This document shows positions 20,394-25,548 of a stretch of 64,000 nt of DNA, one piece after another; position 1 is the stretch's first letter; every line of letters begins with the position of its first letter. This stretch comes from the human T2T-CHM13v2.0 reference genome, Homo sapiens: NCBI RefSeq assembly GCF_009914755.1, contig NC_060934.1; one strand, written 5' to 3'. A program made the position numbers and the translations under genes. Below the pieces are notes generated by a model that was given only the letters and a program-made list of their open reading frames with translations, was not told the origin of the DNA and ran no database searches.

Positions 20394-20970
20394 TATGATT
20401 GATGGTTTTGCTACATATACTTGGAGCAATGGGCCACACTGTACTGGTTTGTCGGGTTCTTGGCACAAATATCAAGACACTTGGGTTTTTTTACTGGGAT
20501 CTTGAGTGTTAGTTGCCATGACTGGTTGTATAGCAGGAGGTACCTTTGTGACCCACCTGCTACAAAGCCCTCAGATTCTGAGACTCATATATACCAGATA
20601 GCTCTACCAGAGAGAAAGTGCTCCTGTGTGGCTGTGAATGAGGAAGGAAATCAGAGGCCTATGCTGGGCCTCCCAGGACCCTCCCTGGACTCCTCTGTTT
20701 GCACATTCCCTGCTATTTTTGCTCAGTATGCTTTGCTGCAATGAATCTTAGGACCCTGTCACTGAGTCTCGTGCATCCATCTGGTGAACCACCAAAAAAC
20801 AAGACAAAATCTTCGGAAATAGTCCTTACGCTATTTTCTGCATTTTTCGTGATTAGAATCCATGTGGGTTTTTTTTAATCACACACACACACACACAAAT
20901 ATGACAAAAACTTGGATCTCAGGGAAGAAAAGTATTCATTAATGAACTACAAAAATAAGCCATGGCAAAG

Positions 20971-22155
20971 ATGGGCGCTGTGGCTCACGCCTGTAATCCC
21001 AGCACTTTGGGAGGCCGAGGCTGGCAGATCAAGAGTTCTGGAGATCGAGACCATCCTGGCTAACACAGTGAAACCCCGTCTGTACTAAAAATAGAAAAAA
21101 TTAGTTGGGCGTGGTGGTGGGCACCTGTAGTCCCAGCTACTCAGGAGGCTGAGGTAGGAGAATGGCATGAACCCGGGAGGTGGAGCTTGCAGTGAGCTGA
21201 GATGGCGCCACTGCACTCCAGCCTGGGTGACAGAGCAAGATTCCATCTCAAAAAAATAATAATGATAATAATCCATGGCAATGAGCAAAATGCAGGTGGG
21301 TGGGGAGGACCCTTGTAACTCTGATCACAAGAAAAGTGGTCATTTCTTTAACATATGAATCGTTCCTATAAACAAAGAAGAAAATCCCAACAATCCAATA
21401 GGAAAACTATTGAATGGATCACGCACACAAAAGATATGATAGTTCACTCAAAAGGAAAGATAAGGATACTAAGCAATAAATTCAAAATTAAACCAAAGTA
21501 AGATACCAATGGCACAAACCAAATGCTTTGCCGACATTGTGGGATAGGCTATGGTAAATTTATATATTGCTTATGAGGGTACAAATTAATACAACTTTTT
21601 TGGATTTTAATTTCTCAATAGTTCTAAAAATTTTAAATAACCTATCCTTTGGCCTAGTGAATCCACTCTAAAAGACTATCTCGCAGATATGGTTCCTGAG
21701 TATAGGTTAAATAAAAGACATTCACTCACTGAATGCTGTTTATAAAAGCAAACATCTAAACAATCTATGGGTCCATCAACAAAATTCTTGCTGTATTATG
21801 TTTCATCCACACATTGGAAAAGTATAGAGCAGTTCAGAAAAATAAGATAAGGCCGGGCGTGGTGTGGCTCATGCCTGTAATCCCAGCACTTTGGGAGGCC
21901 GAGGCAGGTGGATCGCTTGAGGTCAGGAATTCGAGACTAGCCTGGCCAACATGGCGAAACTCCCATCTCTACTAAAAATACAAAAATTAGCCAGGCATGG
22001 TGGCGCATGCCTGTAATCCCAGCTACTTGGGAAGCTGAGGCAGGAGAATTGCTTGAACTGGGGAGGTAGAGGTTGCAGTGAGCCAAGATCGCACCACTGC
22101 ACTCAAGCCTGGGCTACAGAGCAAGAATCTGCCTCAAAAATAAATAAATAAATAA
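20971..22155 (+). mobile_element. AluY-like (~20971-21265) and AluS (~21851-22155) inside the retrocopy's 3' portion
   Basis: Alu consensus; AluY flanked by aataa.ccatggcaa repeat. Confidence 0.88.
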
Positions 22156-22842
22156 GTCTATATGCACTGACATGTTCAAACCCTCTGCCACTGTAGATGA
22201 AAAATGTAATCTGCATAGCACAAATAGCTCAACAATATTTATGGAAAAGGTATATTTGCTATATCTTTGATATGCATGTATATGCATAGAAAGGGTTTGT
22301 GAGGATGTAGACCCACTTTTTAACACTTCCTTTAAGAGGAATGGGATAGAAAGGTTTTGATTTCTTTTTTCCACTTTTCATTCTATGCGTTTACTTGTTT
22401 TTACTAGGAGAATGTATGTTCATGTTACATTTGTGGACAGAGAATAAAAACAATAAGTCAAGTGCATCAGGTTCACAAAAGCCTTACCTGAAACTGCTAC
22501 AGGGTGAACACCAGGAAAGGTAAAATCTGTTTCTCAGGACACGTGGAATTTCTGTGCCATTTGTGTGTGTAGGAGAAACCCCCAAATTCTCCCAATAAAT
22601 TGCGAGTCCCGTAGGATAGGCACGCATTTGATGGCCTTGAAGAAGCGATCCTTGTATTTGCCGAACCCCTGAGAGGTCAACCAGGCCACAAACACCTTCC
22701 ATATTCGTCAGGCGACTGGGGCCAACCACGTGCTACAAATGCCGCCTCCGCCGGCAGCTTGGGGCGGAGCTCAAATAGACTCGCCTAGAATTTCTCCAGG
22801 AAACGGTTGGGTAGGGGGAGCTCTGGCCCGCGGCTGCTTTTT

Positions 22843-23403
22843 CACCTGCCAAGGCCTGGGTGCTTCCTGCAGAGCCATTTCACCAACAACGACTCCTACG
22901 TCTTCTCGGCTTCCAGGATGAGCACCGAGGCCAATTGCGCCTCGCTTCTGGCGGTCTTCCACAGCGACTCACTGCTGGACCCGGCCATCTTTGCAGAAGT
23001 CAGCAAACTGGACGGTGCGGTGCAGGATCTGCGTGTGGCGCGGGGAAACGGAAGCCAGATCCAGTACCAGCAGGTGTGCGCGAGGTACAGGGTGCTCTGC
23101 GTGCCCCCCAACCCGCTCCTGTACGCCTGGCAGGTGGACAAAACGCTCGACCTGAGCAGCATCTCCTTCCCCATCTACAAATAGGGCGGGCATCCCCTCT
23201 ACCTGACCAGCTTCTTCGGAGGACACATCTTGGGGGACAGCCTAGGAATGGGCCACTTACTCCTGCGGGCCAAAGCCGTGTGGCTGCTGTACTGCCTGAA
23301 GACCGAGCACCCTGAGGACGACGTGCAGAGCAAGCAGTGGCTCACCCATTTCCTCGACCAATTTGCCAACGTTAAGAACAGCCTGGCCTTGAAGAAAATT
23401 GAG
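22843..23403 (+). pseudogene. PTCHD3 pseudogene: PTCHD3 (patched domain containing 3) exon 1 fragment, pseudogenised
   Basis: Translates to [21 protein letters not shown]...[15 protein letters not shown]...[11 protein letters not shown]...[25 protein letters not shown], matching recalled PTCHD3. In-frame TAG at 23182-23184, 5' portion missing, GT donor at 23404-23405. Confidence 0.93.
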
Positions 23404-24037
23404 GTACCTGGCTGTTCGGGTTTACAGGGAGGCCAGGAGAAGGTGGGAGGGACGGGGAAGACTTGTGCCCAGAACCCTAACAGAAGCGCTGCCTGACTGC
23501 TTGACGGGGTCCTTGCCTCAAAGCTGGGTGTGCTCTGCTGTATTTGGTACTTAATCCAATTTTCTGAACACCGATGGATGCCAGAAATTGTGAATTTTCG
23601 GTAACATTCTAGTCAATAACACAAATCTTGTGTCCACCAGATGGGCCGGTTCAGTACAGACATTGATCTTCATATTTAATTTTGGGGTTTGGTTTCTAAT
23701 CAAATTATAGTACTCTGAAATTCTACTTTTAGTTAAAGTCTTCACTGGTTTTGGGGAGCCCCCTAAAACTTGCTTGGAGCTCTCTAGGATTAAAAAACAA
23801 ACTTTTAAGTAGAAGTTCCGTGGTGTTAAGAAGGTAAGTAGCTCAGCATTTTTCAAATTAGATACATATGAAGCATCTGGCTTAGTGTGAGGTACATATC
23901 AGCTGTTCAGTTATTGCTGGGTCAGCAACCCTATTAAGTTGTATAAATAGAGAAGCAGTGGGGGTGTCAGGGCACAACCCAGGCAGCAGCGGCGGCCACA
24001 GCGTTTATCCGCCTGTGGAGGATGAGGCATCCTCGGC

Positions 24038-24375
24038 GGTTCAACTGTGTTGCTCCAAGTGACATAATGTCATGATTTTGGTGGCTGAAGGGTTTTGCCT
24101 TGTGTACATACTAGAGTTTCTTGATCTCTTCATTTGTGGATGGACAGGTTCATCTGTATTGCTCCAAGCTACATAATTTTATTATTTTGGTGGCTGAAGG
24201 CTATTCCCTTCAGTATATGTGTTAGAGTTTCCTGATCCCTTCATCTGTGGATGCACAGGGTTCCACATGTGGCTGCGGATGACAGGGTTTCCAGAAGCTT
24301 TATGGCTGAAGAGTATTCCATTGTGTATCTACACAGCAGTTTCTTTACCCCTTCATCTGTGAATAGCCAGGTTGA
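24038..24375. repeat. Three degenerate ~110-bp tandem units of L1-3'UTR-like sequence within the PTCHD3 intron copy
   Basis: Units start ggttc at ~24038, ~24147 and ~24259 and share tggctgaag...cttcat(c/t)tgtg. Confidence 0.65.
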
Positions 24376-24530
24376 TGTGATTCCTGGATTGCCTGGAAGA
24401 AGCAAATACAGAACAGAGCATTGAATTACTGGTTTAGACAGTGGGAAAAAGACATATGTTTACCGTTATCTTCTCTTGGCACATTTGACATATTATAGAC
24501 TTTATTTTACTGAGTATATTTTTGTGGCGG

Positions 24531-24647
24531 GCGGTCCAGTTTACATCGCTTTCCAGACAACTGGAATTTGAGGCAACTTCTATGACAGTGATCCCTGTGT
24601 TTCACCTGGCATACATTCTTATCATACTGTTTGCAGTCACATCATGC
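24531..24647 (+). pseudogene. PTCHD3 pseudogene: PTCHD3 exon 2 fragment with mutated splice acceptor
   Basis: [39 protein letters not shown] continues exon 1 in phase; preceded by CGG instead of CAG (24528-24530); truncated at the RAB18 junction. Confidence 0.9.
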
Positions 24648-24770
24648 TATTGTTGCTGCAAGTTCTGGATCAAAAGTATTATCTGTGAAACTCAAGAGCA
24701 GGCTGGACTTGCCCGCCCCACTCTCGCCAATGATGAGGATCTTCAGGGTGGTCAGCGCATCCTCATCCAT
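24642..24770 (-). pseudogene. RAB18 pseudogene: RAB18 exon1+exon2 processed fragment; 42-aa [45 protein letters not shown]
   Basis: 37/41 identity to recalled RAB18 N-terminus ([41 protein letters not shown]); no intron; GC-rich RAB18-like 5'UTR at 24771-24847. Confidence 0.93.
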
Positions 24771-25548
24771 CCTCACCCTGCTGGGCTCTGAGCCCAGCTG
24801 TCTGCCCCAGGGTCCACCTCTCAGCCTTTCAGTAGGGAAGGCTGCCCAGAATCCATGTGTTTTTATGAAACATCCATCAGTTTCATATAATAATACTAAA
24901 GATTGATCATGATAATATGTATACTGATAAACCTCAGTCCCATTATGTCTTTTTCTTAAACTGCTTTCTAAAATTTGAAATTTGTTCTTTTCTTCTGAAG
25001 ATTTTGGAGGGTCTAGTTGAATTTCAATAATTTTAAATGACTTTTTAAAAAACCACAAAACCCTGTATGATCCAGATGCCATCTCGCCACTTGGAGAGTA
25101 CCTATTATTTTGGAGACATGTGCACTTGCTAAAATTGGCTTGGAACAGCCTACAGAGTGCATGCCTTTGGGTCCTCTTGGATTGATTACTGCCATTCTTT
25201 CTTCTCCAACATTCTGGAGGCACTGACTCATGGATTACAAAGTGTTTCAAAATTCTACCACATATGCCCCTGCCAACTCTAGCTCAATTTTTATATCTTT
25301 GCAAAAACTTGACCTCTAATGAGGTCTTAGGTTTATTTTATAATCCACTGGGTTAAAAATAACTAGACTTAGATTGCCTTTATATGGTATTCATCTGTAT
25401 ACTTAGCTCTTAGGCTATTGGTTAGGACTTATACAATTAAAAAACTCACGATGTATATTTAGAAGATGTCAGAAAAACACTCACTTTCTAAGTCTTCAAA
25501 GTTATATTCTTTTACATTGTCTCTCCTGACCATCGAGAATGCTCTTGA

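What the first reader, a model, noticed from the sequence alone, without database searches (positions are those of the whole stretch)
20855..24865. Retrocopy of a chimeric RAB18::antisense-PTCHD3 mRNA: one insertion that looks like two separate pseudogenes
Seen: one unit bounded by AGAATCCATGTG (20855-20866; 24848-24859, then TTTTT/A) with an A-tail on the minus strand. Read 5'->3' on minus it is RAB18-like 5'UTR, intronless RAB18 coding start, then the reverse complement of PTCHD3 exon 2, intron 1 and part of exon 1, then ~2 kb of other sequence. Known: L1 retrotransposition gives TSDs, A-tails and intron loss; RAB18 and PTCHD3 are neighbours on human 10p12, and PTCHD3-derived loci exist nearby (PTCHD3P1/SVIL-AS1). 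Inference: a RAB18-type promoter drove a spliced fusion transcript through an inverted PTCHD3 copy, and that RNA was retrotransposed. This explains a processed RAB18 piece beside an intron-containing PTCHD3 piece, since an antisense intron is not spliced. It records a germline-expressed fusion transcript that is also a natural antisense to PTCHD3.
Basis: partly seen in the sequence, partly recalled or inferred. Interest (0 to 1): 0.9.

Follow-up and report, generated by a model that had tools for sequence, protein, structure and literature searches.

The report
Retrocopy of RAB18–antisense-PTCHD3 fusion RNA
This 4-kb stretch of human chromosome 10 is a dead, reverse-transcribed copy of a spliced fusion RNA that began with the first two RAB18 exons and ran backwards through a duplicated PTCHD3 gene, and two pseudogenes on chromosomes 2 and 6 are differently spliced copies of the same RNA.

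Summary
Window 20867-24847 (minus strand) is one L1-type insertion. It has an exact 12-bp target-site duplication, an A8 tail and a TTTTT/A nick site. It starts in the RAB18 5'UTR and has RAB18 exons 1-2 precisely spliced. RAB18 exon 2's last base is joined to an AG acceptor in antisense PTCHD3 exon 2.

New findings:
- Only two other loci in the T2T genome carry this junction. They are on chr2 and chr6 and are probably the annotated PTCHD3P2 and PTCHD3P3. They have different flanks and different splice forms.
- The "other 2 kb" is the PTCHD3 5' flank plus two later Alus.
- A rearranged relic of the intron-containing parent lies at chr10:29.44-29.454 Mb, probably PTCHD3P1. It holds the RAB18 promoter, exon 1, intron 1, exon 2 and 2.1 kb of intron 2, fused to antisense PTCHD3. 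It has canonical splice sites exactly at the isoform boundaries where true PTCHD3 has none.
- That relic now has a local inversion and lacks the PTCHD3 5' flank, so no intact parent survives in this genome.

The substitution tree conflicts with the structural characters on whether PTCHD3P1 is the direct source. No outgroup empty site could be tested. This is a new member of a known kind (a retrocopy of a fusion transcript), of moderate interest.

The parts
20855..20866 (.). Left target-site duplication AGAATCCATGTG (17-nt form 20855-20871, 15/17 match)
20867..20876 (-). Remnant poly(A) tail: A8 on minus (T8 at 20869-20876) followed by CC (20867-20868)
   Evidence: The chr2 copy ends at the same base of the template, followed by its own A-run, whereas the true locus continues GTGATTATAATTGCTGCG.
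20877..20971 (-). 3' end of the retrocopied RNA. It is antisense of the distal PTCHD3 5' flank and includes a (CA)n run at 20880-20897.
   Evidence: 86% to C10:27445831-27445902
20972..21266 (+). Alu inserted after retroposition (own 18-nt duplication at 20954-20971 / 21267-21284). It is absent from the chr2 copy and the true locus.
21267..21850 (-). Antisense of the PTCHD3 5' flank (86% to true locus, 86-87% to chr2 copy)
21851..22141 (+). Second later Alu insertion, absent from the chr2 copy and the true locus
22142..22844 (-). Antisense of the proximal PTCHD3 5' flank / promoter. It contains the donor CAG|GTAAGG (22488|22487) that the chr6 isoform used. It ends at the deletion junction 22845|22844.
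22845..23403 (+). 3' 559 nt of PTCHD3 exon 1 (sense on +, copied as antisense RNA). It is a CpG-island-like stretch that keeps 22 of 32 CpGs of the true gene.
23404..23949 (+). 5' part of PTCHD3 intron 1 (starts GTACC). It contains the antisense acceptor (AG at 23785-23784) that the chr2 and chr6 isoforms used.
23950..24418 (-). Start of the long last exon. It derives from the 3' part of a ~1-kb repeat-derived insertion present in the chr10:29.45 Mb paralogue but not in true PTCHD3. It includes a ~110-bp triple repeat.
24419..24509 (-). 91-nt exon from the same paralogue-specific insertion. In the paralogue it is preceded by T15ACAG| (a canonical acceptor).
24510..24646 (-). Antisense of PTCHD3 exon 2, used as an exon. 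It enters at a cryptic AG 6 nt inside the exon's 3' end and leaves at ..ACTCAG| (donor GT in the paralogue). The stop codon TGA at 24644-24642 ends the 43-codon ORF.
24647..24702 (-). RAB18 exon 2 (56 nt, 95% to the true exon)
24703..24847 (-). RAB18 5'UTR (77 nt) and the coding start of exon 1 (ATG at 24770), spliced precisely to exon 2
24848..24865 (.). Right target-site duplication (24848-24859; 17-nt form to 24864) and the TTTTT/A L1-endonuclease-type site on the + strand

Best explanation
Window 20867-24847 is a processed, L1-mobilised retrocopy, oriented on the minus strand. Its template was a spliced, polyadenylated, non-coding fusion RNA.

The RNA came from a duplication-made chimeric gene. 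In that gene a copy of the RAB18 promoter, exon 1, intron 1, exon 2 and about 2.1 kb of intron 2 was fused to an inverted copy of the 5' half of PTCHD3. That half comprised 0.9 kb of intron 2, exon 2, intron 1, exon 1 and about 1.9 kb of 5' flank.

Transcription from the RAB18-type promoter ran antisense through PTCHD3. RAB18 exon 2 was spliced to a cryptic acceptor in antisense PTCHD3 exon 2, and further antisense-strand splice sites gave several isoforms. At least three isoforms were reverse-transcribed into the germ line at different times: this copy, and older copies on chr2 and chr6.

Shown:
- the insertion hallmarks
- the exact splice junctions
- the shared junction in three loci with unrelated flanks
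- the genomic fusion at chr10:29.44-29.454 Mb

Inferred:
- L1 was the machinery
- the source was the ancestor or a sister of the present chr10:29.45 Mb locus, which has since been inverted and truncated
- the copy itself has no function (the ORF stops after 43 codons and no RAB18 promoter was carried)
For: (1) Insertion hallmarks.
- There is an exact 12-bp duplication, 15/17 when extended. 4 of 1000 shuffles reached its score.
- There is an A8 tail and a TTTTT/A site.
- No alignment to any paralogue lies outside 20869-24846 except Alus.

(2) RNA origin.
- RAB18 intron 1 (5.4 kb in the true gene) is removed exactly at ..GTCCAG|CCTGCTC.. .
- Exon 2 ends at its true last base (|GTAAGC in the gene). 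It is joined to CATGATG, which follows an AG in antisense PTCHD3.

(3) Same junction elsewhere.
- A genome-wide search with the 329-nt junction piece scored 8 of 8 candidates.
- Exactly three loci span the junction: the window, C2:170246999-170247314 and C6:110466418-110466724.

(4) Different isoforms.
- chr2 and chr6 lack window 23784-24509. The product is ACTCAG|TGAGCTCC, with C in place of the T in chr2.
- The chr10:29.45 Mb locus has CAG|GTATAT and CCCAG|TGAGCTCC exactly there. True PTCHD3 has CAG|AT and CCCAA|.
- The window uses the same donor, but joins it to an exon preceded in that locus by T15ACAG|.
- chr6 goes from the donor CAG|GT (window 22488) into an antisense snoU13 pseudogene (Rfam 99.4 bits, E 5e-22). 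It ends at the AATAAA and natural poly(A) site of an LTR.

(5) Common 3' end.
- The window and chr2 copies both stop at GTGATTA(TA) plus an A-run. The true locus continues instead.

(6) Parent relic.
- C10:29439958-29449311 is colinear with RAB18 from -1 kb into intron 2.
- Block 29449596-29450961 is inverted. It carries 94 bp of RAB18 intron 2 abutting PTCHD3 intron 2.
- Undoing the inversion therefore gives RAB18 intron 2 fused to antisense PTCHD3 intron 2-exon 2-intron 1-exon 1.
- The window shares with this locus a ~1-kb insertion absent from true PTCHD3.
- It also shares a breakpoint: TTGGCCGG|TGAAAG in that locus against TTGGCAGG|TGAAAAAG in the window.

(7) Promoter state.
- The RAB18-like promoter of that locus is still a CpG island (o/e 0.77 against 0.81 for true RAB18).
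- The RAB18 parts of the three retrocopies have decayed to 0.19-0.34.
Against: - The ML tree and site patterns group the window with the true genes, not with the chr10:29.45 Mb locus. Support for (win,true) is 91/94. 14 sites (9 non-CpG) favour win+true against 7 (4 non-CpG) for win+par. K2P is 0.100 for win-true and 0.132 for win-par.
- The present chr10:29.45 Mb locus lacks the PTCHD3 5' flank altogether, and its exon-2 block is inverted. It cannot make this RNA today.
- The terminal exon of the chr6 isoform was not found. It is absent from 103 kb of the true PTCHD3-RAB18 locus and from 20 kb at the relic. It was also not found genome-wide at <=3 mismatches.
- No AATAAA or ATTAAA lies within ~40 nt of the 3' end shared by the window and chr2 copies.
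- The duplications of the chr2 and chr6 copies are weak. 792 and 161 of 1000 shuffles reached their scores, although both sit exactly at the ends.
- The A-tail is only 8 nt.
- The ~615-bp gap in exon 1 has no GT-AG.
- No outgroup empty site was examined.
Confidence: 0.9

Rival explanations
1. There was one retroposition only. The window, chr2 and chr6 copies are DNA-level (segmental) duplicates of a single chimeric insertion.
For: All three share the RAB18/antisense-PTCHD3 junction. The duplications of the chr2 and chr6 copies are statistically weak.
Against: Flanks are unrelated beyond the insert ends. Each copy holds sequence that the others lack, in a pattern that only an unspliced common template explains:
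- The window has the 91-nt exon and the insertion-derived piece.
- chr2 and chr6 have about 615 bp of exon 1 that the window lacks.
- chr6 has a different terminal exon.
The 5' ends also differ by up to ~25 nt.
Confidence: 0.02
2. There was no chimeric gene. The L1 reverse transcriptase switched templates from an antisense PTCHD3 RNA to RAB18 mRNA during insertion, as in a U6-L1-type chimera.
For: Chimeric retrocopies made by template switching are known (recalled, not checked here). There is short microhomology at some joins.
Against: The join is at the last base of RAB18 exon 2 and directly after an AG in the antisense strand. The same join recurs in three independent insertions. A genomic RAB18-PTCHD3 fusion exists.
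Confidence: 0.02
3. The template came from the original 10p12 locus, by trans-splicing or a since-collapsed tandem duplication of the PTCHD3-RAB18 interval. On this reading the chr10:29.45 Mb locus is only a side copy of that junction.
For: The window groups with the true genes in the tree, and win-true distance is smaller than win-par. The retrocopies contain the PTCHD3 5' flank, which survives only at the true locus. A tandem duplication with breakpoints in RAB18 intron 2 and PTCHD3 intron 2 would create exactly this fusion (inference).
Against: The window carries the ~1-kb insertion and the breakpoint seen in the 29.45 Mb locus and not at the true locus. The true locus lacks the GT and AG used by the isoforms. 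The U13/LTR terminal exon is not in the 103 kb between PTCHD3 and RAB18.
Confidence: 0.25
4. A processed RAB18 fragment inserted on its own into a DNA-duplicated PTCHD3 fragment.
For: None found.
Against: The RAB18 piece has no A-tail and no duplication of its own. It stops at the exon 2/3 boundary and abuts an antisense AG acceptor. The only duplication brackets the whole 4-kb unit.
Confidence: 0.01

Closest known systems
PIPSL, the hominoid retrogene made from an intergenically spliced PIP5K1A-PSMD4 transcript (passages read in PMC3747384)
   Same: Exons of two neighbouring genes were joined at the RNA level by splicing. The chimera was then reverse-transcribed and integrated by L1.
   Different: - Here the second partner is read antisense, so its intron and promoter are carried along.
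- The fusion needed a prior DNA rearrangement (a duplication placing RAB18 exons 1-2 upstream of inverted PTCHD3).
- The product is non-coding (stop after 43 codons).
- It was retrocopied three times in different splice forms.
PTCHD3P1 / PTCHD3P2 / PTCHD3P3 pseudogene names. PTCHD3P2 is listed at chr2:170.62 Mb hg19 in a table of PMC9112484. PTCHD3P3 is listed at chr6:109.61 Mb hg19 in a table of PMC6733812. PTCHD3P1 is named beside SVIL/SVIL-AS1 in PMC12558498.
   Same: The chr2 and chr6 retrocopies found here lie at about those places. The chr10:29.45 Mb relic lies where PTCHD3P1 is expected. The window copy is a fourth relative.
   Different: - The identification is by name and approximate position only. 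No lift-over between assemblies was done.
- The window copy is not in the RefSeq table supplied with the finding.
- None of the 14 papers listed for these names looked, from titles and abstract starts, to deal with their origin. I opened passages in four of them.
Ordinary processed pseudogene (L1-mediated retrocopy of an mRNA)
   Same: Target-site duplication, A-tail, TTTT/A site, intron loss, and a start at the transcription start region.
   Different: - The template was a chimeric antisense lncRNA.
- As a result the copy contains a promoter, part of an exon and part of an intron of PTCHD3 in sense on the opposite strand.
L1 template-switch chimeras (U6-L1 type; recalled, no paper opened)
   Same: Two unrelated RNAs end up in one insertion with one duplication.
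   Different: Here the join is a splice junction that recurs in three insertions.

Membership tests
L1-mediated processed retrocopy | Introns removed exactly at exon junctions | tested here: met
   RAB18 exon 1|exon 2 and exon 2|antisense-PTCHD3 are joined at the true exon ends. A further join matches GT/AG sites in the paralogue.
L1-mediated processed retrocopy | Target-site duplication of about 7-20 bp bracketing the whole unit | tested here: met
   12/12 exact, 15/17 extended. 4 of 1000 shuffles reached the score.
L1-mediated processed retrocopy | Poly(A) tail at the 3' end of the template | tested here: met
   A8 on minus at 20869-20876. It is short. The chr2 copy ends at the same template base with its own A-run, whereas the genomic locus continues.
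L1-mediated processed retrocopy | TTTT/A-type endonuclease site at the tail end | tested here: met
   TTTTTA at 24860-24865 on the + strand, next to the duplication. The consensus itself is recalled.
L1-mediated processed retrocopy | Empty site in an outgroup species | not testable with these tools
   Only the window's own assembly is held (header: no relatives).
Retrocopy of a fusion (chimeric) transcript, PIPSL-like | Sequences of two genes joined at splice sites | tested here: met
Retrocopy of a fusion (chimeric) transcript, PIPSL-like | A genomic locus where both parts lie on one strand in the right order, with introns | tested here: inconclusive
   C10:29.44-29.454 Mb has them once a ~1.4-kb inversion is undone. 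It lacks the PTCHD3 5' flank, and the tree does not place the window next to it.
Retrocopy of a fusion (chimeric) transcript, PIPSL-like | Fused open reading frame | tested here: not met
   The ORF is RAB18 residues 1-42, then Ala, then stop.
L1 template-switch chimera | Join at a non-splice position, unique to each insertion | tested here: not met
   The join is at an exon end plus an AG acceptor, identical in 3 loci.
Segmental (DNA) duplication | Homology to the paralogue continues beyond the unit's ends | tested here: not met
   blastn of window 20500-25300 against 7 fetched loci gave nothing outside 20869-24846 except Alu matches.

The most novel reading that the evidence does not exclude
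Because the template RNA was antisense to PTCHD3, reverse transcription moved a whole PTCHD3 promoter, CpG island, part of exon 1 and part of intron 1 to a new locus in sense orientation. This would be promoter duplication through RNA.

In this copy the island has stayed CpG-rich. It keeps 22 of 32 CpGs of the true gene, against 7-10 in the other three copies. The RAB18 part of the same insert keeps 1 of 10. This suggests the island has remained unmethylated, and perhaps active, in the germ line for tens of millions of years.

Together the three retrocopies are fossil isoforms of a primate chimeric lncRNA gene that was germ-line-expressed over a long period and no longer exists intact.
Probability: 0.25. 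Interest if true: 0.6.

Novelty: new member of a known kind. Interest (0 to 1): 0.4.

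Why it matters
- It explains in one model why a processed RAB18 fragment sits beside an intron-bearing, inverted PTCHD3 fragment at three human loci. 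It thereby reclassifies these PTCHD3 pseudogenes as retrocopies of an antisense fusion lncRNA, not of PTCHD3 mRNA or of genomic PTCHD3.
- It shows that retrocopies can preserve the exon-intron structure of a source gene that has since been rearranged or lost. Here that includes an exonised antisense snoU13 pseudogene and an LTR poly(A) site.
- It shows that an antisense template lets a promoter and intron travel by RNA.
- Practically, it flags an insertion that is missing from the RefSeq table supplied for this window.
- It changes nothing about RAB18 or PTCHD3 function.

Tried and rejected
- The terminal exon of the chr6 isoform (antisense U13 plus LTR) was sought four ways: with a 161-nt query, an 83-nt query, a 34-nt pattern at <=3 mismatches and the Rfam U13 family (only 50 of a very large candidate set scored). 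Only the chr6 copy itself carried the U13-LTR junction.
- Local blastn of that exon against 103 kb of the true locus and 20 kb at the relic found nothing.
- The chr6 copy does not resume within 6.8 kb downstream.
- I first read the window as retaining the whole of PTCHD3 intron 1. Alignment to the relic showed spliced exons instead.
- I looked for GT-AG at the ~615-bp gap in exon 1 and found none. It shares its left edge with the end of homology in the relic, so I read it as a genomic deletion in the source. This rests on one breakpoint and 5 matching bases.
- Recent gene conversion from true PTCHD3 was considered as the cause of CpG retention and of the tree conflict. The longest identical run is 43 bp, so there is no sign of a recent tract.
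- One literature search failed on a too-short term.
- I did not classify the Alu subfamilies or the ~1-kb insertion. Its likeness to L1 is only recalled.

Full report
**Observation**

The 12-mer AGAATCCATGTG stands exactly at 20855-20866 and 24848-24859. Nowhere else in the window does it occur, even with one mismatch. Shuffles gave a mean of 0.42 matches, and 8 of 100 shuffles gave two or more anywhere. With the next five bases the repeat is 15 of 17. A local-alignment test of the two flanks was matched by 4 of 1000 shuffles. Read on the minus strand, the insert ends ...GTGTGATT-AAAAAAAA-CC, followed by the repeat. On the plus strand the right-hand repeat is followed by TTTTTA.

**Content, 5' to 3' on the minus strand**

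- 24847-24703 is the RAB18 5'UTR (77 nt) and the coding start of exon 1 (ATG at 24770).
- 24702-24647 is RAB18 exon 2.
- In the true gene (C10:27.53 Mb) exon 1 ends ..AAGTCCAG|GTGAGG. Exon 2 runs from TTTCAG|CCTGCTC to ..ACAATAG|GTAAGC. The copy has the two exons joined exactly.
- After the last base of exon 2 the copy continues with CATGATGTGACTGC. This is the reverse complement of PTCHD3 exon 2, starting 6 nt inside that exon's 3' end.
- In antisense, that point follows CTTTTTACCTAAAG| in the true gene and CTTTTTACCTGCAG| in the paralogue described below. The join is therefore a donor-to-acceptor splice junction.
- The fused ORF is RAB18 residues 1-42, then Ala, then stop.

**The rest of the insert**

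- Local blastn against the fetched loci and genome searches show the insert to be colinear, in antisense, with the true PTCHD3 locus. It runs from exon 2 (C10:27442086) to about 1.9 kb upstream of the gene (C10:27445902).
These Alus are absent from the true locus and from the chr2 copy. The first has its own 18-nt duplication; at the second, the blast alignments overlap by about 15 bp, as a duplication would give. They therefore arrived later.
- Nothing outside 20869-24846 aligns to any paralogue apart from Alus.

**Two more copies of the same fusion**

- A genome-wide search with the 329 nt around the junction scored 8 of 8 candidates. It found exactly three loci that span the junction: the window, C2:170246999-170247314 (88%) and C6:110466418-110466724 (87%). 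The other five hits are the separate exons at the true genes and at C10:29.45 Mb.
- By name and approximate position, the chr2 and chr6 copies are PTCHD3P2 (chr2:170.62 Mb hg19, table in PMC9112484) and PTCHD3P3 (chr6:109.61 Mb hg19, table in PMC6733812). I did no lift-over.
- The three copies start within about 25 nt of one another in the RAB18 5'UTR.
- The window and chr2 copies stop at the same template base, GTGATTA(TA), each followed by its own A-run and unrelated DNA. The true locus continues GTGATTATAATTGCTGCG.
- The duplications of the chr2 and chr6 copies lie at the right places but are weak. chr2 has 9 of 11 matching bases, and 792 of 1000 shuffles did as well. chr6 has 10 of 11, and 161 of 1000 shuffles did as well.

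**The copies are different splice forms**

- chr2 and chr6 lack window 23784-24509 and read ACTCAG|TGAGCTCC (chr2: CGAGCACC).
- The window instead joins the same ..ACTCAG to a 91-nt piece (24509-24419), and then to a long last exon from 24418.
- chr6 leaves at the donor CAG|GT (window 22488|22487; GT is present in the window, chr2 and true sequences). It enters a full-length snoU13 pseudogene in antisense (Rfam RF01210, 99.4 bits, E 5e-22).
- In 2 of 5 other U13 pseudogenes inspected, the antisense strand reads T-run-CAG|GTCAGAC, an ideal acceptor. 4 of 5 have a T-rich run there.
- The chr6 copy then runs 38 nt into the R region of an LTR with AATAAA. It carries its A-tail where three genomic copies of that LTR continue CTCTGAAACTTGCC.
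- chr2 and chr6 keep about 615 bp of the 5' part of PTCHD3 exon 1 that the window lacks.
- No copy can be derived from another. All need a common unspliced template.

**The parent relic**

- At C10:29439958-29449311 the genome holds a copy of RAB18 from about 1 kb upstream through exon 1, intron 1, exon 2 and 2.1 kb of intron 2, on the plus strand.
- Next comes a block, 29449596-29450961, that is inverted. It holds PTCHD3 intron 1 (3' end), exon 2 and 0.9 kb of intron 2 in sense. At its far end are 94 bp of RAB18 intron 2 (27542380-27542473), also inverted.
- Then follow PTCHD3 intron 1 and part of exon 1 in antisense, up to 29453918.
- Undoing the inversion gives RAB18 intron 2 fused to antisense PTCHD3 intron 2-exon 2-intron 1-exon 1.
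- This locus has canonical sites exactly where the isoforms are cut, and the true gene does not:
  - acceptor CCTGCAG| (true CCTAAAG|)
  - donor CAG|GTATAT (true CAG|ATAAAT)
  - acceptor CCCAG|TGAGCTCC (true CCCAA|TGAGCTCC)
  - T15ACAG| before the window's 91-nt exon
- That exon and window 23950-24418 come from a ~1-kb insertion (29451623-29452616, flanked by an 8-bp repeat of the PTCHD3 sequence) that the true gene lacks.
- The end of PTCHD3 homology in this locus (..CCCTTGGCCGG|TGAAAG) coincides with the left edge of the window's ~615-bp gap (..CCTTGGCAGG|TGAAAAAG).
- Its RAB18-like promoter is still a CpG island (o/e 0.77 over 601 bp, against 0.81 for the true one).
- PMC12558498 names PTCHD3P1 beside SVIL and SVIL-AS1 (passage). 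I take this locus to be PTCHD3P1 but did not check coordinates.

**What does not fit**

- The relic has no PTCHD3 5' flank. That flank exists only in the window, the true locus, chr2 and (in part) chr6 (4 of 4 candidates scored; 3 of 3). No intact parent therefore survives in this assembly.
- On 1,240 of 1,288 aligned columns the ML tree is ((chr2 0.091, chr6 0.094), (relic 0.083, (window 0.053, true 0.050))). Support for window+true is 91/94.
- Two-state sites: window+true has 14 (9 outside CpG), window+relic has 7 (4), and chr2+chr6 has 17 (10).
- The structural characters (insertion, breakpoint, splice sites) tie the window to the relic's lineage. The substitutions tie it to the true genes.
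- I read this as follows. Either the relic is a side copy of a source that kept exchanging sequence with the true genes and was later lost, or the grouping is a rooting or homoplasy effect that an outgroup would resolve.
- The longest run of identity between window and true PTCHD3 is 43 bp, so there is no recent conversion tract.
- No AATAAA or ATTAAA lies near the 3' end shared by the window and chr2 copies.
- The junction between the window's 91-nt exon and the last exon has a canonical acceptor in the relic (TCTTCCAG|), but today GA rather than GT at the donor.

**Age (rough)**

Branch lengths of 0.05 (window) and 0.09 (chr2, chr6) substitutions per site, with recalled primate neutral rates of about 1-2 x 10^-9 per site per year, suggest roughly 25-50 and 45-90 million years. 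The fusion gene was thus expressed in the germ line at two or more well-separated times.

**Mechanism and function**

- Shown: the hallmarks of target-primed reverse transcription and a spliced chimeric template.
- Inferred: L1 supplied the machinery, and the copy is inert as a RAB18 derivative (no promoter carried, 43-codon ORF).
- One feature deserves follow-up. Because the template was antisense to PTCHD3, the copy carries the PTCHD3 promoter region and the 3' part of exon 1 in sense on the plus strand.
- Window about 22600-23200 is still CpG-island-like (GC 0.57-0.62, o/e about 0.7).
- It keeps 22 of 32 CpGs of the true exon. This compares with 10, 9 and 7 in chr2, chr6 and the relic. The RAB18 part of the same insert keeps 1 of 10.

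**Literature**

- A search for PTCHD3P1/2/3 listed 14 papers. From titles and abstract starts, all seem to use the names only in gene lists. I read passages in four.
- PTCHD3 + RAB18 + pseudogene gave one unrelated paper, on lizards (listing only).
- PTCHD3 + retrocop* gave none.
- Subscription journals, and supplements that I did not open, could still hold a description.
- The closest described case is PIPSL, a retrogene from an intergenically spliced PIP5K1A-PSMD4 transcript (passages in PMC3747384).

**Verdict**

This is a new member of a known kind, with a well-resolved and unusually rich history but no evident present function. Interest 0.4.

Noticed in passing
window 22600-23400 (+ strand): The retrocopied PTCHD3 promoter-proximal region is still CpG-island-like (GC 0.57-0.62, CpG o/e about 0.7). 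It keeps 22 of 32 CpGs of the true exon 1 part. The RAB18 part of the same insert keeps 1 of 10, and the chr2, chr6 and chr10:29.45 Mb copies keep 10, 9 and 7 of 32. This may mean the stretch stays unmethylated in the germ line.
   Followed up: partly
L030 8292-8434 (C6:110469292-110469434): The chr6 retrocopy ends in a full-length snoU13 pseudogene read antisense, followed by 38 nt of an LTR R region with AATAAA and an A-tail at the LTR's natural poly(A) site. The antisense of a tailed U13 pseudogene reads T-run-CAG|GT, a ready-made splice acceptor. The genomic exon it came from was not found.
   Followed up: partly
L027 3596-4961 (C10:29449596-29450961): There is a local inversion of about 1.4 kb inside the PTCHD3P1-like locus. 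It flips PTCHD3 exon 2 together with 94 bp of RAB18 intron 2. Alu elements lie at or near both edges.
   Followed up: partly
L027 7691-7918 (C10:29453691-29453918): A stretch of PTCHD3 exon 1 about 95 bp long is present three times in tandem at the end of the PTCHD3P1-like locus.
   Followed up: no
window 24038-24371: A triple tandem repeat of about 110 bp lies inside the insertion-derived part of the retrocopy. It is also present in the chr10:29.45 Mb locus. Its resemblance to an L1 ORF2 fragment is recalled only.
   Followed up: no
window 20880-20897: A (CA)9 microsatellite sits just before the A-tail, where the true locus and the chr2 copy have a T-rich run instead. It arose in this copy or in its template.
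   Followed up: no
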